Source: a virus
DNA length: 12,623 nucleotides
Virus genome (UHGV): UHGV-0265509
Strand: one strand, 5' to 3'
In this document: one piece after another, positions 4,744 to 12,623 of the stretch
Position numbering within the stretch: the first letter of the stretch is position 1
Layout: each line of letters opens with the position of its first letter
Notes under the pieces: generated by a model
Told to the model about the DNA's origin: nothing
The model's database searches: none
Seen by the model: only the letters and a program-made list of their open reading frames with translations
Program-made: the position numbers and the translations under genes

Positions 4744-4785
4744 CGTAAAAATAAATTCTCCCTCTCTCCAAACGGAGAGAGGGAA
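4744..4785 (-). terminator. rho-independent terminator (same stem sequence as the 3713-3736 hairpin)
   Basis: 12-bp stem containing the identical CCCTCTCTCC / GGAGAGAGGG core (4760-4769 and 4774-4783), loop AAAC, followed on the minus strand by AAUUUAUUUUUACG; directly after the stop of gene 4789..5295. Confidence 0.8.
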
Positions 4786-4788
4786 GGT

Positions 4789-5295
4789 TTACAGTACGTT
4801 TTCTTCGCGATCGTCTACTAACACAGAAGTAATCACATAACGCGCTAAGCGACTACGTGCTTCTTCCGTTTCTTCTTCAGAAGGTAGCTGTTCGCCCGCA
4901 GGCGCACACAACGTTAGCCCAGACTCACGAAGCTGTTCGGCATAGTCTTCTACGGCTGTGTCGAACGTACCACGAATACCTGCTACCGCATCCATAATTT
5001 CGTCATTCGGAATAATGGATTCTTTTAGCACAGCGTGAGCATCTGTAGGCTCCACCATTTGCAGGTTCTGTTCTACCAGCAATGCCTGTTTCGCTAAGCT
5101 GTCGGTGATAAAGCAAGACAGAATCTTTTCGAAATCGTCTAACGAGAATTCGGTGTCTTCAGATGCCCCGGTAATCAATTGCCCGTAGCGATTAAAGAAT
5201 TCTTTACAACGTGTTTCGTAGTCAGCTTCTAAGTCGCGAACGCCGAGATCAAAATCGTGCTGCTCCAGCTGATTAAAATCCAGAGTCTCTTTCAT
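4789..5295 (-). CDS. strongly acidic hypothetical protein (168 aa); candidate DNA-mimic/anti-restriction protein
   Basis: ATG at 5293-5295 with SD GGAGA; by hand count roughly 39 Asp+Glu against roughly 14 Lys+Arg, including a C-terminal SEEETEEA tract; last gene of the Dam operon before the terminator. Function inferred only from composition and context. Confidence 0.55.
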   Translation of the reverse strand: MKETLDFNQLEQHDFDLGVRDLEADYETRCKEFFNRYGQLITGASEDTEFSLDDFEKILSCFITDSLAKQALLVEQNLQMVEPTDAHAVLKESIIPNDEIMDAVAGIRGTFDTAVEDYAEQLRESGLTLCAPAGEQLPSEEETEEARSRLARYVITSVLVDDREENVL

Positions 5296-5333: not shown

Positions 5334-5561
5334 CTAGAGAGCCAACGTTAACCCGGTATGGGTTTGTACTGAACCAACACCATCGCGCGCTTTTGCTTTG
5401 GCGATAAGCTTGTCAATCACGCGTTGATGACTGCGGGTAATAACTTTACCCGGATAACCGATAATCAGCACGTTCTCGTCATTAATAACCGCCGAGAATT
5501 CGTTATCACCTGCGACATAAGTAATCTTTTTGTCTTTGGTTACAATACGTTTGATTTCCAT
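5334..5561 (-). CDS. hypothetical protein (75 aa)
   Basis: ATG at 5559-5561 with AGGA SD; 9 nt after the stop of the upstream gene; function unknown. Confidence 0.45.
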   Translation of the reverse strand: MEIKRIVTKDKKITYVAGDNEFSAVINDENVLIIGYPGKVITRSHQRVIDKLIAKAKARDGVGSVQTHTGLTLAL

Positions 5562-5570
5562 TCAATGTCC

Positions 5571-6344
5571 TTAAAAGATAAAATGGCCAGTTAATGCTTC
5601 TACTTCAACACCAGACATTGCTGGAGGTGCTGAGTATGGAAAAGTAAGACGCACGGTTGCACCCTTTAAATACGCAATACGGTAGTATGTGGTCAAGAGC
5701 GCAATCCCGTAAGTACAGTCGTTATAGAAGAAACCTTCGGTTGCAAACGTCTTTTCGTTGATTTTCGAATAGACTAAGATACCTTCAACTTTACCGTCTT
5801 TACGACAGCACAGCCCTTCAGCAGCCCCAATAGCTAACAATCCCAGGCAGTATGTATCTAAACTGACATTAACCACCTTAGGGATCGTAAACGTTTCTTC
5901 TAACGTTAGAGATTCAATATCAACTACATCAGGTAAATCGGTGCGAACTTCGGGTTCTTCAGTAAACGTCAGGTCATAGTCGATAGACGTCGGCTGCATA
6001 CCCAAATACACCATTAACTGGTCGCGACGTTTTAGGTCGTTGGCAGGGTATGTGACATCAAACACCTCCACTTTTAACAAACGTTTGAGTTGTGCGAAAT
6101 TAATTTTCTTCTTCGCAAACACAACGATTGCCGACATGTAGAAAAACTTACCGTCGGCACGACCGGAGAAGATTCCTTGTAGCTGATTCGTGTTCGAAAG
6201 AATGATAAAGGTCGGATCTTCAGACTCGCGAATGACGTCCTTTTCCAGTAACCCTTTCCGTACACGGGTTAGTGAAACCATTTTCCCGTCGACACCAATT
6301 GCTAAATGGTCATTACGATAATCGTGAATATCCACTATGCGCAT
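5571..6344 (-). CDS. hypothetical protein (257 aa), translationally coupled to Dam
   Basis: ATG at 6342-6344 shares one base with the dam stop codon (TAATG at 6342-6346); uninterrupted 257-codon ORF; no recognisable motif. Confidence 0.6.
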   Translation of the reverse strand: MRIVDIHDYRNDHLAIGVDGKMVSLTRVRKGLLEKDVIRESEDPTFIILSNTNQLQGIFSGRADGKFFYMSAIVVFAKKKINFAQLKRLLKVEVFDVTYPANDLKRRDQLMVYLGMQPTSIDYDLTFTEEPEVRTDLPDVVDIESLTLEETFTIPKVVNVSLDTYCLGLLAIGAAEGLCCRKDGKVEGILVYSKINEKTFATEGFFYNDCTYGIALLTTYYRIAYLKGATVRLTFPYSAPPAMSGVEVEALTGHFIF

Positions 6345-7159
6345 TAGAGCACTCCCAGTAATTCAGTCACCGTTTTCCGAGCAGCGCCAGACGCACCCAT
6401 ATAGCGACCGACCTCAATACTGCGCCACTCAAAACCGTAATAAATTTCTCGGGTGAGCAGGGTGTCTGCATTTGACAACACGACACTGTTGCCACGTTCC
6501 ACCTGCTGCTGTAGTAACTTGGCTAATTCTCGATGATCCGTTTGTGAGAATTCTTTACGGTGGTATTGCGCATGTTTCGCGGTATCCGATAACGGAATAT
6601 ACGGAGGATCAGCATAAATCACAGCATCCTCAGGCGTCCGCGCTAATACGGAACGAAAGTCTTCACAAACAATTTCCAGATAATCAACTTCTGCGCAACG
6701 TTTAGCCCAATCCCGAATTTCTTCTAACGGATAATAAACCCCATTCGGGTAACGTCCAAACGGAACATTGAACCCACCGCTACCGTTATAACGACACATC
6801 CCGTTATAACCGTGACGCATTAAGTATAAAAACATCGCTGCCCGTTCAACTTCTGACATTGTTTTACCGCTATTAAACAGCTCACGACGCTCCATATACT
6901 TTACAGTGGTATTACCGTCTAAGAACAACGGCTGCGACGCAGCGATCAGTTCTTCAGGCTGTTCACGCGCAACGCAAAGTAAGCGTATCAAATCAGGGTT
7001 AGAATCCGATAAAATATACCGGCTGTAATTCGTATTTAGGAAAACAGACCCTGCACCCACAAACGGTTCTACAAAGGTTGTACGTTTAGGTAAGACCTTT
7101 TGTAATTCCCCTAAAACACGTGTTTTCCCACCCATCCACTTAATAATTGGTTTCCGCAT
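6344..7159 (-). CDS. dam: DNA adenine methyltransferase, Dam family (GATC N6-adenine MTase)
   Basis: 271 aa, near-colinear with E. coli Dam by eye: N-terminal KWMGGK (Dam KWAGGK), AdoMet-binding FVEPFVGAGSVFLNT, LYLMRHGYNGMCRYN...FNVPFGRY, catalytic DPPY, C-terminal RKTVTELL. ATG at 7157-7159. Confidence 0.9.
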   Translation of the reverse strand: MRKPIIKWMGGKTRVLGELQKVLPKRTTFVEPFVGAGSVFLNTNYSRYILSDSNPDLIRLLCVAREQPEELIAASQPLFLDGNTTVKYMERRELFNSGKTMSEVERAAMFLYLMRHGYNGMCRYNGSGGFNVPFGRYPNGVYYPLEEIRDWAKRCAEVDYLEIVCEDFRSVLARTPEDAVIYADPPYIPLSDTAKHAQYHRKEFSQTDHRELAKLLQQQVERGNSVVLSNADTLLTREIYYGFEWRSIEVGRYMGASGAARKTVTELLGVL

Positions 7160-8138
7160 TATATCCGCCTTGTAACGATGACACTTCGTCGCCTAACACC
7201 AACTCGACACGATTTTTCCGTCGCTCCCAACTGACGACGTCATCGTCGCGCACTAAAACAAATTCGTAATCGTAGGGCCGAAATTTAAATAATTCGACGA
7301 CCAGGTGTCTAAATGCAGGGTTGTTATTGAAACACCCTATCTCTAATGGTGCCGCTGTTGTCGATGCAATCTGCAGAGCACGGTATAACAAAGTCCGTCC
7401 GATACCACGCCCCCGATGTGTTTCACTTACCGCAATGGCTTTTAATTCACACTCGTTAAGATTACGTAATTTAACTTGCACCACGCCCACAACATCGTTG
7501 CCGTCCATCCAAACGTAGGTGTGGTGGTTGACGTGACGTACTAATTCCACCAACGTTTCGACTTGTGGCATGATTTGTCGTGTGCGGCCCACAGGGTCAG
7601 CGTTGATGTTTTCAACGACGCTCGTACCCAAAAGCAACATAAGCTGTTCGCGTTGTGTGGCAGTTAGCTCTTTATAAAAATCGCCAGAAATATTCTTCAC
7701 GTTCGTTGGTAGTGCGACATCCAGTAACTTACGTGTGCCTAAACGGTACGTAGAGTGGGCGTGTCTAAATCCCAGGTCATTAAGCTCAGAGATTTCTTCT
7801 ACACCACTGGCAATTCGGTTAAGGTACGTAAAACCGGTATAGTCGAGTACCAGTAGTAGGTTCAGTTTGTTCAAACAACCCGGTACAATCTCATGCATAT
7901 ACAAGCAGTGTAACGTTGGGTCGCCGTAAATGTGTTTTGTGATGATAAACCCTTGAATTGTTTTTCCTTTTTGTAAAGAGAACGTATTCAGTTCACTATT
8001 GCACAACGCCTCACGAATCACCGCACCGTTAGGGCCCGATAAACAAGCTTGGAGTTGAGGGTTGCGAATGTCTCTGCGTGCTAAACGTCCTACTGTTAAA
8101 TCCGTGGCGGTACGTTCTATAGTCTTCCTAAAAGCCAT
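7140..8138 (-). CDS. two-domain protein (332 aa): unknown N-terminal domain fused to a C-terminal GNAT acetyltransferase domain
   Basis: ATG at 8136-8138 with SD AAGGAG; C-terminal part carries the GNAT acetyl-CoA motif (LKAIAVSETHRGRGIGRTLLYRALQIA, i.e. R-x-x-G-x-G); the first ~200 residues have no recognisable motif; 20-nt overlap with the dam start. Confidence 0.65.
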   Translation of the reverse strand: MAFRKTIERTATDLTVGRLARRDIRNPQLQACLSGPNGAVIREALCNSELNTFSLQKGKTIQGFIITKHIYGDPTLHCLYMHEIVPGCLNKLNLLLVLDYTGFTYLNRIASGVEEISELNDLGFRHAHSTYRLGTRKLLDVALPTNVKNISGDFYKELTATQREQLMLLLGTSVVENINADPVGRTRQIMPQVETLVELVRHVNHHTYVWMDGNDVVGVVQVKLRNLNECELKAIAVSETHRGRGIGRTLLYRALQIASTTAAPLEIGCFNNNPAFRHLVVELFKFRPYDYEFVLVRDDDVVSWERRKNRVELVLGDEVSSLQGGYNAETNY

Positions 8139-8185
8139 TTTAATTACTCCTTAAAAGGTCGTCTCAAAACAATACACTATAGCTG

Positions 8186-8220
8186 TAAAAACAAAAAAGA
8201 ATGGGGAACCGAAGTTCCCC
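8186..8220 (-). terminator. rho-independent terminator
   Basis: 7-bp GC-rich stem GGGGAAC / GTTCCCC (8203-8209 and 8214-8220); the RNA loop is UUCG, followed by AUUCUUUUUUGUUUUU on the minus strand. Confidence 0.8.
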
Positions 8221-8319
8221 TATATTAGTTAGCCGAACAGTCCCTCATCAAAATTCAAAGTGGGGGCTTCATGTAGTATTTCCATTGCCATGATTTTTAC
8301 TCCCGAAACGGTTCTTCAA

Positions 8320-8745: not shown

Positions 8746-8789
8746 CTGAGAAAAAATAAAATATAGGTACCACCGTTGGGTGGTACCTA
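8746..8789 (-). terminator. rho-independent terminator
   Basis: 11-bp stem (8764-8774 and 8779-8789, core GGTACCACC / GGTGGTACC), loop of 4 nt, followed on the minus strand by UAUAUUUUAUUUUUUCUC; directly after the stop of the kinase gene. Confidence 0.8.
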
Positions 8790-9486: not shown

Positions 9487-9525
9487 ACAATAAAAAAGAA
9501 ACCCGCCCCTACCGTTAAGTAGGGG
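9487..9525 (-). terminator. rho-independent terminator
   Basis: 7-bp stem CCCCTAC / GTAGGGG (9506-9512 and 9519-9525), 6-nt loop, followed on the minus strand by CGGGUUUCUUUUUUAUUG; directly after the stop of gene 9533..10138. Confidence 0.7.
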
Positions 9526-10152: not shown

Positions 10153-10524
10153 TTAGAACCCCTCAAGAACAGCTTTCACAAATTCGTAAACCGTGCGTCG
10201 GTGTTCTTCAAGCGGATAAACAAACTTAGAATAATCGTTGTTCCAGACAACCGGATAGAGGTCGCCGTCACAACTTAAATAGCTCTTACGAACCATGTAA
10301 TAATCTAAACCTACACGGAAGTTTAACGACAGACTACCGTGTTTACTACAAACGTGTAGCTGGAGCGATTTCACACCGTCGTGGGTTGGTGATTCAATCG
10401 TTTCCGCATACAATACATCCGAACACTGTTCTATAACGCTAACGACATCTCTGAGGTTGTTGTCTGCATCGATGGTCGCCTTTCGGAGAGCGTCGGTGTA
10501 TTGCTGAAGTTCTCGATAGAACAT
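10153..10524 (-). CDS. hypothetical protein (123 aa)
   Basis: ATG at 10522-10524 with SD GGAG 9 nt upstream; the start lies 94 nt inside the upstream ORF in another frame. Confidence 0.5.
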   Translation of the reverse strand: MFYRELQQYTDALRKATIDADNNLRDVVSVIEQCSDVLYAETIESPTHDGVKSLQLHVCSKHGSLSLNFRVGLDYYMVRKSYLSCDGDLYPVVWNNDYSKFVYPLEEHRRTVYEFVKAVLEGF

Positions 10525-11063
10525 CCTGCTAATCTCCTGTCTCTACCGTAAGGTAGAGGAAATGCTTTGTGTTCAAATTCTGCAACGACATACGCAGGAT
10601 AGAACAAAAGGTATTTATAGAACGTAGCCAACGTAACGTCTTTCGGGGTGGCTAAAAAGTAATTAAGATCGGGGTTGTCTGGAAAAGCAAAATGCAACCC
10701 TGTATATACCTGGCCTTTATACTCCCCATTAAAGGGCGTCACTGCACATCGTGGGTGTGTCGGCTCGACATGTAACCAACGACTCCCAACATGATAAACA
10801 GCGCGTACTGTGGCGTTTCGAGTTTTACCCAAGTAACGGCAGCGAATATTCTTTTCCCATGCAACACGTTGCGCGGGTGAACCCAGAGAAACAAACCGTG
10901 TTAAAGCCTCGGGCGTAAAGTAATCAAAAATGCCTGTCGGTAAACACCAACACGCTTTATCGATTCGTACCACTCTCCAACCAGGACGAAAACCCACAGC
11001 GTAACGCTCTACACCAAAAGTATATCTAGACCCGTCATGAAACGGTACGAATCTTGCAGCCAT
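10431..11063 (-). CDS. hypothetical protein (210 aa)
   Basis: ATG at 11061-11063, 1 nt after the GNAT gene stop; Trp/Tyr/Phe-rich; C-terminal ~30 codons overlap the next gene and contain a hairpin, so the true 3' end is uncertain. Confidence 0.5.
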   Translation of the reverse strand: MAARFVPFHDGSRYTFGVERYAVGFRPGWRVVRIDKACWCLPTGIFDYFTPEALTRFVSLGSPAQRVAWEKNIRCRYLGKTRNATVRAVYHVGSRWLHVEPTHPRCAVTPFNGEYKGQVYTGLHFAFPDNPDLNYFLATPKDVTLATFYKYLLFYPAYVVAEFEHKAFPLPYGRDRRLAGCSIENFSNTPTLSERRPSMQTTTSEMSLAL

Positions 11064-11064
11064 T

Positions 11065-11532
11065 TTAGATTTCCTTTATCATTTCCCTGCATTCGGTACG
11101 GAATCCCATTTTCTCATACAGGGAGATAGCTTTAACGTTGTTGTCTAACACATCCAGACTCATCCAACCACAGCCTTTGGACTTTCCGTATTCACGGACT
11201 TTGTCCATAAGCGCACGACCTACCCCTTGAGAACGTGCTTCGGGAATCACGTAGTAGTTCCCAATATAAACAAATGTGTCCTTTGAGCAAGAGCCCATTG
11301 AAAACGTCATGAAGCCCAAAAGTTGTTCGTCGCCATCCACCGCACACGCACAGAGATAATCTTGAGGCCAAATCTCTTCTAAGTGTTCAATTGGGTTGAA
11401 CGTGTCGCGTCCGGTTAACTGACTAATACGCACTTTCTCTTCTGCGAACAGCATGTTGTGCAGTTTGAGTACCTGGTCGCCGTATAACTTTCCGTATTTA
11501 CTGTCGGGTTTGAGAATAATAGTGATACGCAT
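11065..11532 (-). CDS. GNAT family N-acetyltransferase (155 aa)
   Basis: ATG at 11530-11532 in TAATG overlap with the upstream gene, SD GAGG; canonical GNAT motif A (YVIPEARSQGVGRALMDKVREYGKSKG) and motif B-like LYEKMGF. Confidence 0.8.
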   Translation of the reverse strand: MRITIILKPDSKYGKLYGDQVLKLHNMLFAEEKVRISQLTGRDTFNPIEHLEEIWPQDYLCACAVDGDEQLLGFMTFSMGSCSKDTFVYIGNYYVIPEARSQGVGRALMDKVREYGKSKGCGWMSLDVLDNNVKAISLYEKMGFRTECREMIKEI

Positions 11533-12623
11533 TATTTAACCTCAATCAGCGACAATCTGCACCATTCCAGTAAGCCCTCCGCAACGCGCACTAACGTGGT
11601 AGTAAACGCATCTTCTAAACGCAGCGCGTTTTTATACCGAACGGTAGCATCGCGTAACTCACGACCATCTAACGACTTCAGCTCTTTTTTCATTCGCTGA
11701 ACTTCATCGTAAATACCAGTATAACCAACACTACGTCGTTTCGTACCACGCTGACGTAACGCTCGGATAATGTTTCTAACAGCATCGAGAGCTGAACCGA
11801 TCTCGTGCAAGTTCAGCGATTTGATTGTGTGGCCAAAATCACCATCGCGGGCAATCGCCCACTCAATCTTACCGCTGTCGTGTTCAACGACCACCACGTT
11901 ACCAGGCCACGGATACGCTTTCACCGTTTTAAACGGATCAATAATACCGAACAGTCCTGCGCTTCGTTTAATCGCCCAGCTCGTTGACCGTCCCACTTTC
12001 TCCAAACCGCTCTCGGTAACTTTCTTGCTCTTACCGATAATAGTGCGTGTTTTAACGGTATACTCGTTGACCATCGCATCCATTGCGCTCAGGTTCTTAC
12101 TGAACTCAATACACGCTTTTACGTTAGGCTTGTCTTCTAAACAAACTTTGGTTGTCCAACTTCCCGTGTCGCAGTCGACCGGTTTTAAAGTGTCCTTGAT
12201 GCCGAGTAAACTTAGCTTTGCGGTTAACTTTTCCAGTTTGCGTTCTAAGGTCGTCGCTTTAGACGTCGCTTCTTTTAATTCCTTAATGACTTCTTTACCG
12301 GCGGCTTCCGCGAAGTCGACAAAACGTAACGCAAGTTGCTTAGAATGTTTACCTGCGAAGTTTCCGGTTGCCTTAGCCCCCGCTATCGCTGCCTTTCCAG
12401 CAATACGACCAGCCCCTTTAACCGCTCTGCCGGTCGCGCGTGCGACCGCTTTACCTACCCCTGCGTAAGGCTCAGTGTCCGCAACAAATTGCGCGCGTTC
12501 CATCATCGCTGCGGACTCTAGCGCAACCTGCACATCGTCTAAAACCCACCGTTTTCGGATAGCGACAATCGCCGGATAATTGTCTTTAACATTAAGCGAC
12601 TCTAACGCGACCAATCGATCGTA
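11532..12623 (-). CDS. hypothetical protein, 5'-partial (at least 363 codons in window), Ala/Gly/Lys-rich segment
   Basis: The reading frame stays open to the window edge (12623); the ORF-track start at 12612-12614 is a TTG, so the true start is probably outside the window. Contains the low-complexity tract AVARATGRAVKGAGRIAGKAAIAGAKATGNFAGK; function unknown. Confidence 0.55.
   Translation of the reverse strand, partial: YDRLVALESLNVKDNYPAIVAIRKRWVLDDVQVALESAAMMERAQFVADTEPYAGVGKAVARATGRAVKGAGRIAGKAAIAGAKATGNFAGKHSKQLALRFVDFAEAAGKEVIKELKEATSKATTLERKLEKLTAKLSLLGIKDTLKPVDCDTGSWTTKVCLEDKPNVKACIEFSKNLSAMDAMVNEYTVKTRTIIGKSKKVTESGLEKVGRSTSWAIKRSAGLFGIIDPFKTVKAYPWPGNVVVVEHDSGKIEWAIARDGDFGHTIKSLNLHEIGSALDAVRNIIRALRQRGTKRRSVGYTGIYDEVQRMKKELKSLDGRELRDATVRYKNALRLEDAFTTTLVRVAEGLLEWCRLSLIEVK

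What the first reader, a model, noticed from the sequence alone, without database searches (positions are those of the whole stretch)
5571..6344. 257-aa unknown protein translationally coupled to Dam (TAATG overlap)
Stop-start overlap implies stoichiometric co-expression with the methyltransferase. A protein coupled to a GATC methyltransferase could be a methylation-sensing or methylation-dependent nuclease, a specificity or regulatory partner, or unrelated. I see no PD-(D/E)xK, HNH or GIY-YIG signature by eye, so a classical restriction endonuclease is not supported, but divergent nucleases are often unrecognisable in primary sequence.
Basis: partly seen in the sequence, partly recalled or inferred. 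Interest (0 to 1): 0.55.

Follow-up and report, generated by a model that had tools for sequence, protein, structure and literature searches.

The report
Degenerate double-GNAT protein beside phage Dam
The gene overlapping the end of the phage's Dam methylase encodes not a hidden nuclease but a very diverged two-domain protein with the acetyltransferase (GNAT) fold, a distant copy of the acetyltransferase gene on the other side of Dam, and its job is still unknown.

Summary
A 257-aa ORF (5571-6344, minus strand) starts in a TAATG overlap with a Dam-family methyltransferase gene (6344-7159). It is a real gene under purifying selection.

The nuclease idea is not supported. Two AlphaFold models (pLDDT 86 and 88) match only GNAT acyltransferases. 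The best matches are two-domain ("tandem") GNATs such as VipF, MshD and MAB_4324. The protein is the SPN3US gp106 / PHROG 9941 family, found only in SPN3US-like jumbo phages. It is a remote paralogue of the 332-aa GNAT gene upstream of Dam.

No family member keeps a detectable GNAT sequence signature. The acetyl-CoA loop motif is not conserved, and the C-terminal half lacks helix alpha-4. A non-canonical or inactive GNAT is therefore most likely.

Dam lies immediately upstream in all 16 loci examined, with gaps of -4 to +12 nt. However, the whole block is syntenic, and 9 of 21 gene junctions in the window overlap. Dam also diverges independently of its flanks, and the sister genus Derbicusvirus has the GNAT array without Dam. 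The gene sits in a five-gene unit bounded by hairpin terminators whose positions are conserved.

This is an ordinary divergent member of a known superfamily. A functional link to Dam is unproven.

The parts
5571..6344 (-). 257-aa gene for a tandem GNAT-fold protein (SPN3US gp106 / PHROG 9941 family)
5955..6344 (-). N-terminal GNAT-like half (about residues 1-130): strands at 45-49, 54-64, 67-75, helix 83-90, strand 94-100, helix 104-114 ending in an 'LG[MF]' motif-B-like element, strand 120-127. It has no Q/RxxGxG/A loop.
   Evidence: Secondary structure of both models. Family alignment. The domain boundary is my reading of the model.
5574..5933 (-). C-terminal GNAT-like half (about residues 138-257): helices 148-171, strands 176-182, 185-196, 199-207, helix 210-226, strand 230-236, then a loop instead of helix alpha-4, and a last strand 246-256. 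It holds E203 (conserved in all but the Machina orthologue) and the family's only invariant polar residue, H254.
   Evidence: In the hhalign alignment this half lines up with the Pfam-recognisable GNAT domain of the upstream 332-aa protein.
6342..6356 (-). Junction with Dam: GGGAG Shine-Dalgarno-like site (6356-6352), Dam stop TAA (6346-6344) and start ATG (6344-6342) sharing base 6344
   Evidence: Read directly from the sequence.
6344..7159 (-). Dam-family N6-adenine DNA methyltransferase, 271 aa
   Evidence: PF02086 E 6e-57. TIGR00571 at 252 bits. PADLOC orphan methyltransferase model E 1.7e-85.
7140..8138 (-). 332-aa tandem GNAT protein with a canonical acetyl-CoA loop (HRGRGIGRTLL). It is the SPN3US gp104 / PHROG 8663 family, a remote paralogue of the 257-aa protein, and overlaps the Dam start by 20 nt.
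   Evidence: PF00583 E 2.5e-12 over residues 199-278. PHROG 8663. Best solved relative by sequence is VipF, E 7.6e-7. hhalign against the 257-aa family gives E 4.6e-5, probability 68.5%, over 206 columns. Foldseek links the 257-aa model to the Kwan orthologue of this gene at E 1.5e-12.
5334..5561 (-). 75-aa gene (PHROG 7896, function unknown), 9 nt downstream, in the same transcription unit
4789..5295 (-). 168-aa gene (PHROG 8221, function unknown), last gene of the unit
8203..8220 (-). Intrinsic-terminator-like hairpin (GGGGAACTTCGGTTCCCC followed by a T-run) just upstream of the GNAT gene, marking the 5' boundary of the unit
   Evidence: Hairpins sit at the same relative position in SPN3US and Caitlin.
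4758..4785 (-). Intrinsic-terminator-like hairpin (12-bp stem followed by a T-run) just after the 168-aa gene, marking the 3' boundary of the unit
   Evidence: Hairpins sit at the same relative position in SPN3US and Caitlin.

Best explanation
The gene encodes a soluble, acidic protein built of two GNAT (acyl-CoA N-acyltransferase) folds. It belongs to the SPN3US gp106 / PHROG 9941 family, which is confined to SPN3US-like jumbo phages.

It is an ancient, very diverged paralogue of the 332-aa tandem GNAT acetyltransferase gene on the other side of Dam. That paralogy is inferred from fold, profile-profile similarity and position.

It is expressed from a five-gene unit, GNAT-Dam-this gene-75 aa-168 aa, bounded by hairpin terminators. 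The unit is inferred from the terminators and the tight gene spacing.

Both halves have lost the canonical acetyl-CoA pyrophosphate-binding loop, and the C-terminal half has lost helix alpha-4. I therefore think it most likely acts as a non-canonical or catalytically dead GNAT. It would bind a host or phage protein or small ligand in its interdomain cleft, or perhaps acylate it with an atypical donor, during infection. That mechanism is inferred, not shown.

It is not a nuclease. Its stop-start overlap with dam reflects the compact gene packing of this genome rather than a demonstrated functional partnership.
For: **Fold**
- Two AF2 models from MSAs of different depth (9 and 13 sequences) give the same secondary structure, with pLDDT 86.2 and 88.0.
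- Foldseek against the PDB puts VipF first (E 6e-10), and further hits are also tandem GNATs.
- Separately built BFVD models of orthologues match with TM 0.82-0.88.

**Paralogy with the upstream GNAT**
- hhalign of the two families gives E 4.6e-5 and probability 68.5% over 206 colinear columns spanning both halves.
- Foldseek matches the model to the Kwan and Derbicus orthologues of the upstream GNAT at E 1.5e-12 and 2e-11.
- VipF is also the best solved relative of the upstream GNAT family by sequence.

**Degenerate cofactor site**
- No Pfam, NCBIfam or PADLOC family is hit at E<=1.
- None of 14 family members hits any GNAT Pfam model at E<=1.
- The position equivalent to RGxGxG reads Y-[GAS]-x-[EAW]-F across the family.
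- There is no helix between strands 230-236 and 246-256 in either model.
- H254 is the only invariant polar residue across genera.

**Real, constrained gene**: dN/dS 0.04.

**Operon**: terminator-like hairpins lie at 8220-8203 and 4785-4758, and at equivalent positions in SPN3US and Caitlin.

**Overlap is ordinary**: 9 of 21 junctions in the window overlap.

**Dam behaves independently**
- Dam is 62-82% nt identical to the E. coli 98232 element, while both flanking genes average about 85%.
- Dam is 68-73% aa identical to SPN3US and phiEaH2, while this protein is 23-25%.
- Derbicusvirus has the TMK-GNAT1-GNAT2-X array with no Dam anywhere in the Derbicus genome.

**Precedent**: chimallin, the nuclear-shell protein of this phage group, contains a GNAT fold that lacks the active-site residues (PMC9365700).
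Against: - Strong purifying selection, and conserved E203 (on strand beta-4 of the C-terminal half, roughly where some GNATs carry their general base), Y69 and invariant H254, are compatible with a retained catalytic site.
- GNATs bind CoA largely through main-chain atoms, so loss of the sequence motif does not prove loss of binding.
- I could not inspect model coordinates, so I do not know whether the conserved residues cluster.
- Dam is immediately upstream in 16 of 16 loci, and both genes are absent from Derbicus. That pattern is what a functional Dam partnership would also produce.
- The paralogy rests on a moderate hhalign probability (68.5%).
- No expression, localisation or interaction data for this family could be found in the papers available.
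Confidence: 0.55

Rival explanations
1. It is still an active acyltransferase: a tandem GNAT like MshD or VipF with one working domain. It would acylate a host or phage protein or metabolite during infection, using acetyl-CoA bound in a diverged site or another acyl donor such as an aminoacyl-tRNA (as in Fem or MprF enzymes). It would act independently of Dam.
For: - Tandem GNAT fold.
- Strong purifying selection.
- Conserved E203 on beta-4 of the C-terminal half and invariant H254.
- The window protein itself has C-T-Y-G-I-A at the loop position, which fits xxxGxA.
- The paralogous neighbour has a canonical active-looking site.
Against: - No GNAT profile hit in any of 14 members, even at E<=1.
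- The loop motif is not conserved across the family.
- Helix alpha-4 of the C-terminal half is missing.
- E203 and Y69 are replaced in the Machina lineage.
Confidence: 0.27
2. It is a functional partner of Dam. It could be a non-catalytic subunit that tunes Dam's activity, specificity or localisation. Alternatively it could be a Mom-like GNAT-fold enzyme that further modifies adenine in phage DNA, so that the pair produces a protective DNA modification.
For: - Dam is immediately upstream in all 16 loci across at least five genera, with gaps of -4 to +12 nt.
- Both Dam and recognisable family members are absent from Derbicus.
- The two genes lie in the same terminator-bounded unit.
- GNAT-fold enzymes that acylate adenine N6 (phage Mu Mom) exist, and other Mom-family genes are reported in jumbo phages (PMC7824862).
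Against: - All occurrences are in one clade whose whole region is colinear, so the adjacency is effectively one event.
- Pairwise identities of Dam and this protein correlate less (r 0.64) than this protein with GNAT (0.91) or with the 168-aa gene (0.82).
- Dam shows its own divergence pattern, with breaks near its gene ends.
- The protein is acidic (pI 5.3-7.1 across the family) and has no recognisable DNA-binding element.
- No known Dam-family enzyme needs such a partner (my knowledge).
- Dam sits between two paralogues, which looks like an insertion into a GNAT array.
Confidence: 0.12
3. It is a methylation-sensing or methylation-dependent nuclease, held in check by or coupled to Dam.
For: Only the genomic coupling to a methyltransferase.
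Against: - No nuclease fold appears among the listed structural matches, which are all GNAT-superfamily proteins.
- No PADLOC restriction-enzyme or defence model is hit.
- No PD-(D/E)xK, HNH or GIY-YIG motif is conserved in the family alignment.
- The protein is acidic.
Confidence: 0.02
4. It is a decaying, functionless duplicate of the neighbouring GNAT gene.
For: Loss of cofactor motifs. Identity between genera is only 22-26%. The related gp107-like gene has been lost from the window lineage.
Against: - The reading frame is intact in every lineage examined, including one where the database gene call was merely truncated.
- dN/dS is 0.04, with 91% aa identity where Dam is 82%.
- Length and predicted fold are conserved across genera.
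Confidence: 0.04

Closest known systems
SPN3US gp106 (SPN3US_0106) and its orthologues in Seoulvirus, Machinavirus, Erskinevirus and Wellingtonvirus jumbo phages (PHROG 9941, 'unknown function')
   Same: Same family: PHROG 9941 E 1.9e-26 over the full length. tblastn and BLASTP identity 22-26% over the full length. Same position directly after Dam in the same operon. Predicted structures match with TM 0.82-0.88.
   Different: The window protein is the most diverged branch: 23-26% identity to all others, whereas SPN3US and phiEaH2 share 44% with each other. It is 7-19 residues shorter. Its lineage lacks the following gp107-like gene. No function has been described for any member.
Tandem-GNAT acetyltransferases: Legionella VipF (6wqb, 7wx7), mycothiol synthase MshD (1ozp), MAB_4324 (7q3a), clostridial glucosamine N-acetyltransferase (5kf1)
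   Different: Sequence identity is 7-13%. TM-scores are only 0.45-0.5 for the whole chain, so the domain arrangement differs. Neither half keeps the Q/RxxGxG/A loop, and the C-terminal half lacks alpha-4. Acetyl-CoA binding is untested.
The neighbouring 332-aa GNAT (SPN3US gp104 family, PHROG 8663) and the Derbicusvirus GNAT1/GNAT2 pair
   Same: Same tandem architecture, same gene neighbourhood, and profile-profile and structural similarity.
   Different: The neighbour keeps a canonical RGxGxG loop and is recognised by Pfam PF00583. The 257-aa protein is not.
Phage Mu Mom (a GNAT-fold enzyme that modifies adenine N6 in DNA)
   Same: GNAT superfamily protein in a phage, with a biological connection to Dam and adenine modification (my knowledge and PMC7824862).
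   Different: Mom is a single-domain protein (my knowledge). The Pfam scan found no family at all at E<=1, but I do not know whether Pfam models Mom, and no direct comparison with a Mom sequence was made. The jumbo-phage Mom genes described in PMC7824862 are fused to nuclease domains, unlike this gene.
Chimallin C-terminal domain (jumbo-phage nuclear shell protein)
   Same: A GNAT fold that has lost the acetyltransferase active-site residues and serves a non-enzymatic role in the same broad group of phages (PMC9365700).
   Different: Chimallin is about 600 aa, self-assembles into a lattice and has a single GNAT-like domain. No similarity to it was detected here.

Membership tests
GNAT (acyl-CoA N-acyltransferase) superfamily, fold level | Mixed alpha/beta fold with a central sheet in which strands beta-4 and beta-5 splay, detectable by structure comparison | tested here: met
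GNAT (acyl-CoA N-acyltransferase) superfamily, enzyme level | Beta-4/alpha-3 pyrophosphate-binding loop Q/R-x-x-G-x-G/A (motif A), recognised by GNAT sequence profiles | tested here: not met
   No Pfam or NCBIfam GNAT model is hit at E<=1 by the protein or by any of 14 family members. The aligned position reads Y-[GAS]-x-[EAW]-F across the family. The N-terminal half has no glycine there.
GNAT (acyl-CoA N-acyltransferase) superfamily, enzyme level | Helix alpha-4 after beta-5, which helps hold the CoA (motif B) | tested here: inconclusive
   Present in the N-terminal half (helix 104-114, 'LG[MF]' motif). Absent in the C-terminal half, where a loop spans 237-245 in both models. This is a prediction only.
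GNAT (acyl-CoA N-acyltransferase) superfamily, enzyme level | Binds acyl-CoA and transfers the acyl group to an amine | not testable with these tools
   Needs biochemistry.
Tandem-GNAT architecture (VipF / MshD-like) | Two GNAT domains in one polypeptide | tested here: met
PHROG 9941 / SPN3US gp106 family | Full-length match to the family profile | tested here: met
   E 1.9e-26, residues 1-255 against profile positions 1-264 of 267.
PHROG 9941 / SPN3US gp106 family | Position directly downstream of dam in the GNAT-dam-X operon of SPN3US-like phages | tested here: met
   Seen in 16 of 16 loci.
Type II restriction endonuclease or other nuclease partner of a methyltransferase | Nuclease fold or motif (PD-(D/E)xK, HNH, GIY-YIG) or a match to restriction-enzyme or defence profiles | tested here: not met
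   No nuclease appears among the listed structural hits. There is no PADLOC hit. No such motif is conserved in the alignment.
Type II restriction endonuclease or other nuclease partner of a methyltransferase | Toxic without the cognate methylase; cleaves DNA | not testable with these tools
   Needs cloning and in vitro assays.
Mom-like DNA adenine acyl-modification enzymes | Sequence or profile similarity to Mom | not tested
   No Mom sequence or profile was available for a direct comparison. The Pfam scan returned nothing at E<=1, but I do not know whether Pfam models Mom.
Mom-like DNA adenine acyl-modification enzymes | Modified adenine in phage DNA that depends on the gene | not testable with these tools
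   Needs LC-MS/MS or SMRT/nanopore analysis of phage DNA.

The most novel reading that the evidence does not exclude
The degenerate tandem-GNAT protein is a dedicated accessory of the phage Dam. It would be either a non-catalytic subunit that alters where or how Dam methylates, or a Mom-like enzyme that adds an acyl-type group to adenine in or near GATC. Under this reading the conserved dam-gp106 pair of SPN3US-like jumbo phages would produce a DNA modification or regulation not yet described. The invariable adjacency in 16 loci and the joint absence from Derbicus do not exclude this.
Probability: 0.07. Interest if true: 0.7.

Novelty: new member of a known kind. Interest (0 to 1): 0.25.

Why it matters
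This gives a structural class, tandem GNAT fold, to a jumbo-phage protein family (PHROG 9941 / SPN3US gp106) that databases list only as hypothetical. It removes a tempting but unsupported reading of a cryptic restriction enzyme next to Dam.

It also shows that in SPN3US-like phages Dam sits inside an array of GNAT-fold paralogues, two of them in the window and possibly three in relatives. That frames a concrete question for a phage that already has genetics (SPN3US): are these GNAT-fold proteins host-takeover or anti-defence factors, and does gp106 have anything to do with DNA methylation?

If it is a pseudoenzyme, it would be a second GNAT fold lacking catalytic signatures in this phage group, after chimallin. 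As it stands, the finding is useful annotation rather than a surprise.

Tried and rejected
**Sequence-level searches gave no functional lead**
- Pfam, NCBIfam and PADLOC found nothing.
- phmmer against PDB sequences gave only a chance hit at E 1.4.
- An exhaustive phmmer over 1.84 billion representative proteins found 5 hits, all from the same phage clade.
- Two profile searches of the 5.8-billion-protein set found no member outside the clade.
- A family-profile hit to the N-WASP WH2 repeats (E 0.006, about 35 residues) was rejected as a short, low-information coincidence. It lies in the N-terminal hairpin/helix region.

**Tool and library limits**
- The afdb50 fold library was not available.
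The models therefore used only window and database proteins, and I could not model the 332-aa neighbour with an alignment or a Dam complex.
- The SPN3US infection-proteomics paper (J Virol 2019) is not held. The SPN3US papers that were searched (virion genetics and head assembly) do not mention gp104-gp107 in their main text, so no expression or virion data were obtained.

**Ideas considered and set aside**
- I first read the protein as fast-evolving (dN/dS 0.15 against a 95%-identical relative). A more distant relative gives 0.04 and shows it is more conserved than Dam within its genus. The low identity between genera therefore reflects old divergence or one episode of change, not continuing rapid evolution.
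- Paralogy with the gp107-like family (hhalign E 0.015, probability 3%) and with the 218-aa upstream family (E 0.28) is not supported by sequence. Foldseek hits to proteins of those sizes from the same phages (TM 0.34-0.44) are only suggestive, and I did not confirm which genes they are.
- Homology with the third gene of the Derbicusvirus array is weak (E 1e-3, probability 21%) and is treated as a lead only.
- Sigma-70 promoter scans were at chance level. They are not expected to apply to a phage that encodes its own RNA polymerases.
Full report
**Observation**

The window carries a run of minus-strand genes. ORF 5571..6344 (257 aa, ATG start) begins at the last base of the stop codon of ORF 6344..7159 (271 aa). 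The plus strand reads CATTA at 6342-6346, which is TAATG on the coding strand. A GGGAG Shine-Dalgarno-like site lies 7 nt upstream of the ATG, at 6356-6352.

The upstream gene is a Dam-family N6-adenine methyltransferase. It matches PF02086 at E 6e-57, TIGR00571 'dam' at 252 bits against a cutoff of 115, and the PADLOC orphan-methyltransferase model at E 1.7e-85. GATC specificity is inferred from family membership and was not tested.

The overlap is not statistically remarkable in this genome. Of 21 consecutive same-strand junctions, 9 overlap, and three of these are 1-nt overlaps of the same kind, at 1690, 6344 and 11532. The 332-aa gene upstream of dam overlaps dam by 20 nt.

**What the locus is**

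The window comes from an unclassified jumbo phage of about 225 kb.
- Near-identical proteins (91-98% identity) come from metagenomic contigs of 224-225 kb and from a Shigella sonnei assembly.
- One such contig carries a phiKZ-type internal head protein and long tail-fibre genes.
- No phage in the INPHARED set matches at the DNA level.
- A relative at 81% nt identity is deposited as a 221,873-bp circular 'plasmid' of E. coli strain 98232.
- The gene order TMK - HTH - (variable genes) - GNAT - Dam - X - ... - 75 aa - 168 aa - 105 aa is colinear with Erwinia phage Caitlin (Machinavirus), Salmonella phage SPN3US (Seoulvirus), phiEaH2 (Erskinevirus) and Kwan (Wellingtonvirus).

**Family and distribution**

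The 257-aa protein matches PHROG 9941 ('unknown function') over its full length at E 1.9e-26. It matches nothing in Pfam, NCBIfam or PADLOC, even at E<=1.
- An exhaustive phmmer search of 1.84 billion representative proteins returned five hits, all from this phage clade.
- Two profile searches of the larger collection added only further members of the clade.
- Using the Caitlin orthologue as query, 53 phage records hold a homologue. All are SPN3US-like jumbo phages of Erwinia, Salmonella, Escherichia and Proteus.
- In SPN3US the gene is SPN3US_0106 (gp106), flanked by gp104 (GNAT), gp105 (Dam) and gp107.
- I found no statement about gp104-gp107 in the SPN3US papers I could search. The infection-proteomics paper was not available.

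**Fold**

An AlphaFold2 model from a 9-sequence alignment had mean pLDDT 86.2 and pTM 0.72. A second model from a 13-sequence alignment had pLDDT 88.0 and pTM 0.75, with all five models at or above 86 and the same secondary structure.
- Foldseek against the PDB placed the tandem-GNAT Legionella effector VipF first (E 6e-10). Other tandem GNATs followed.
- In the viral structure library the best matches were orthologues (TM 0.82-0.88). Next came proteins annotated as GCN5-related N-acetyltransferases from Kwan (E 1.5e-12, TM 0.68) and Derbicus (E 2e-11).
- No nuclease fold appears in any of the listed matches.

The protein is thus a tandem GNAT-fold protein, with an N-terminal half of about residues 1-130 and a C-terminal half of about residues 138-257.

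**Relationship to the neighbouring GNAT**

The 332-aa gene upstream of dam has a Pfam-recognisable GNAT domain at residues 199-278 with a canonical HRGRGIGRTLL loop. Its best solved relative by sequence is also VipF (E 7.6e-7).

A profile-profile comparison of the two families aligns 206 columns colinearly across both halves, with E 4.6e-5 and probability 68.5%. Together with the Foldseek link and the shared location, this makes the two genes flanking dam distant paralogues. I rate that as likely rather than proven.

Similarity to the gp107-like family is not significant by sequence (E 0.015, probability 3%). That family follows gp106 in other genera but is absent from the window lineage.

**Is it an enzyme?**

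Several features point away from a canonical enzyme.
- None of 14 diverse family members hits any GNAT Pfam model at E<=1.
- At the position that aligns with the RGxGxG pyrophosphate loop of the neighbour, the family reads Y-[GAS]-x-[EAW]-F.
- The window protein alone has CTYGIA there, which fits xxxGxA but is not conserved in the family.
- The N-terminal half has no glycine at the equivalent place.
- Both models lack a helix between strands 230-236 and 246-256. That is where helix alpha-4 would sit in the C-terminal half.

Across genera the invariant residues are G20, L86, L90, L167, G173 and H254. Y69 and E203 are conserved except in the Machina lineage.

This pattern fits a non-canonical or inactive GNAT better than a standard acetyltransferase. 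It cannot exclude activity, because CoA is bound largely through backbone atoms and E203 lies on beta-4, where some GNATs place their general base. I could not examine coordinates to see whether the conserved residues cluster.

The protein is acidic (pI 5.4; 5.3-7.1 across the family). A GNAT fold without the active-site residues already has a non-enzymatic role in this phage group, in chimallin (PMC9365700).

**Selection**

Against the 81%-identical E. coli 98232 element, the protein is 90.7% identical with dN/dS 0.04. Neighbouring genes give 0.04-0.08, and it is more conserved than Dam (82.4%).

The higher value against a very close relative (0.15) rests on about a dozen substitutions. Between genera the protein is only 22-26% identical to every other lineage. 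SPN3US and phiEaH2 orthologues share 44% with each other, while the window Dam is 68-73% identical to theirs.

The window lineage therefore carries a strongly remodelled version, which is also shorter and has lost gp107. That version is now under tight constraint.

**Link to Dam**

In favour of a link:
- A Dam orthologue lies immediately upstream in all 16 loci examined. These are the window, Caitlin, Machina, SPN3US, SPAsTU, pEa_SNUABM_29, phiEaH2, Kwan, pEa_SNUABM_11, six metagenomic lineages and the E. coli 98232 element.
- The spacing ranges from -4 to +12 nt.
- One apparent exception, a 163-aa protein 349 nt after Dam, is a truncated gene call. The full 276-aa frame is intact and starts about 10 nt after the Dam stop.
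- The complete Derbicus genome (sister genus Derbicusvirus) has no Dam (best tblastn E 0.12) and no recognisable family member (best HMM E 0.79).

Against a link:
- All occurrences are in one clade with conserved gene order, so the association amounts to about one gain or loss.
- Derbicusvirus has, right after TMK, an array GNAT1-GNAT2-X with no Dam.
  - GNAT2 is clearly homologous to the 332-aa family (hhalign E 3e-17).
  - X is a weak candidate counterpart of the 257-aa family (E 1e-3, probability 21%).
  - Dam therefore looks like an insert into a GNAT-paralogue array, or a deletion from it.
- Between the window and the E. coli 98232 element, nucleotide identity falls from 91% to 68% on entering dam and recovers to 88% on leaving it. 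Dam thus has its own history or rate.
- Pairwise identities of Dam and the 257-aa family correlate less well (r 0.64) than the 257-aa family does with the GNAT (0.91) or the 168-aa gene (0.82). The sample is small and the pairs are not independent.

**Transcription unit**

Terminator-like hairpins followed by T-runs lie on the coding strand at 8220-8203, between the HTH gene and the GNAT gene, and at 4785-4758, after the 168-aa gene. Hairpins occupy the same relative positions in SPN3US and Caitlin.

The likely unit is GNAT - Dam - 257 aa - 75 aa - 168 aa. In other genera one or two extra genes follow gp106. Sigma-70-type promoter matches are at chance level, and these phages encode their own RNA polymerases.

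**Conclusion**

The nuclease interpretation is not supported. The gene is a divergent tandem GNAT-fold paralogue whose cofactor-binding signatures are degenerate.

My estimates are:
- non-canonical or inactive binder, independent of Dam: about 0.55
- still an active acyltransferase: about 0.27
- genuine Dam partner or DNA-modifying enzyme: about 0.12
- nuclease: about 0.02
- decaying gene: about 0.04

This is a new, very diverged member of a known superfamily within an already catalogued but uncharacterised phage family. Interest is modest unless the Dam-partner reading is borne out.

Noticed in passing
window 6344-7159 compared with L030 (NZ_CP173450.1): Between the window phage and its 81%-identical relative, dam is clearly more diverged (62-82% nt per 100-nt bin, 82% aa, synonymous sites saturated) than both flanking genes (about 85% nt, 91% aa for the 257-aa gene). 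Identity steps down and up near the ends of the dam gene. This suggests allele exchange or a different evolutionary rate for dam.
   Followed up: partly
L030 = NZ_CP173450.1, 'plasmid p98232-contig_4' of E. coli strain 98232 (urine isolate, Egypt): A 221,873-bp circular record annotated as a plasmid in a complete E. coli genome is a jumbo-phage genome of the same genus as the window (99% coverage at 81% identity over 3.2 kb, with the same gene order). A near-identical protein is also annotated in a Shigella sonnei assembly (P0007). The phage may persist in or co-purify with isolates.
   Followed up: partly
window 8139-8319, compared with L006 7440-8111 and L030 6227-6910: Close relatives carry a 223-227-aa gene between the HTH gene and the GNAT gene. 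The window lacks it. Only 181 nt lie there, including a 20-codon ORF with its own GGGAG site and the terminator hairpin. This is an indel of one accessory gene between near-identical phages.
   Followed up: partly
whole window: GATC is mildly under-represented although the phage encodes a Dam-family enzyme. There are 23 sites against 33 +/- 5 in dinucleotide-preserving shuffles, and only 2 of 200 shuffles had fewer.
   Followed up: partly
window 11065-11532 (-), next to the phiKZ_IP-like 360-aa gene at 11532-12614: A third GNAT gene lies here: 155 aa, single domain, canonical motifs. By position it may correspond to SPN3US YP_009153389 (154 aa). One paper tested candidate spermidine N-acetyltransferases from related phages. 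Candidates from Caitlin and phiEaH2 were active, and SPN3US YP_009153389 was not (PMC9992855). Neither orthology with the window gene nor which Caitlin and phiEaH2 genes were tested was verified.
   Followed up: no
window 10525-11064: A 540-nt stretch lies between the 123-aa gene and the 155-aa GNAT. The corresponding interval has no called gene in the related contig L006. The window has an open 210-aa frame here (10431-11063) that overlaps the 123-aa gene by 94 nt. Whether this is coding, regulatory or an RNA was not examined.
   Followed up: no
L020 44015-47395 (Derbicus), L021 (CR5), L022 (Phobos): Derbicusvirus phages carry three consecutive genes of about 290-320 aa right after TMK: two recognisable tandem GNATs and a third unannotated protein that overlaps GNAT2 by 4 nt. 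No dam lies among them, and no dam was found anywhere in the Derbicus genome. At the position where the other genera have the GNAT-Dam-gp106 block, before the 75-aa and 168-aa genes, these phages have MazG and an AAA ATPase instead.
   Followed up: partly
L008 6796-7608 (SPN3US gp107) and its equivalents; absent from the window between 5561 and 5571: Other genera have one or two further genes of about 250-270 aa after gp106 (the gp107 family, plus Caitlin gp119). The gp107 N-terminal region aligns weakly with the GNAT-like N-terminal half of gp106. The window lineage has none of these genes.
   Followed up: partly
window 8203-8220, 8764-8789, 9506-9525, 4758-4785 (-): Strong hairpin terminators, three of the four with TTCG or closely related four-base loops, punctuate almost every intergenic gap longer than 90 nt on the coding strand. 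Their positions are conserved in SPN3US and Caitlin, which suggests many short transcription units.
   Followed up: partly
L028 4652-5492 (protein P0028): The database gene call for one family member is truncated to 163 aa. The full 276-aa frame is intact upstream, so this is a mis-called start rather than a domain loss.
   Followed up: yes
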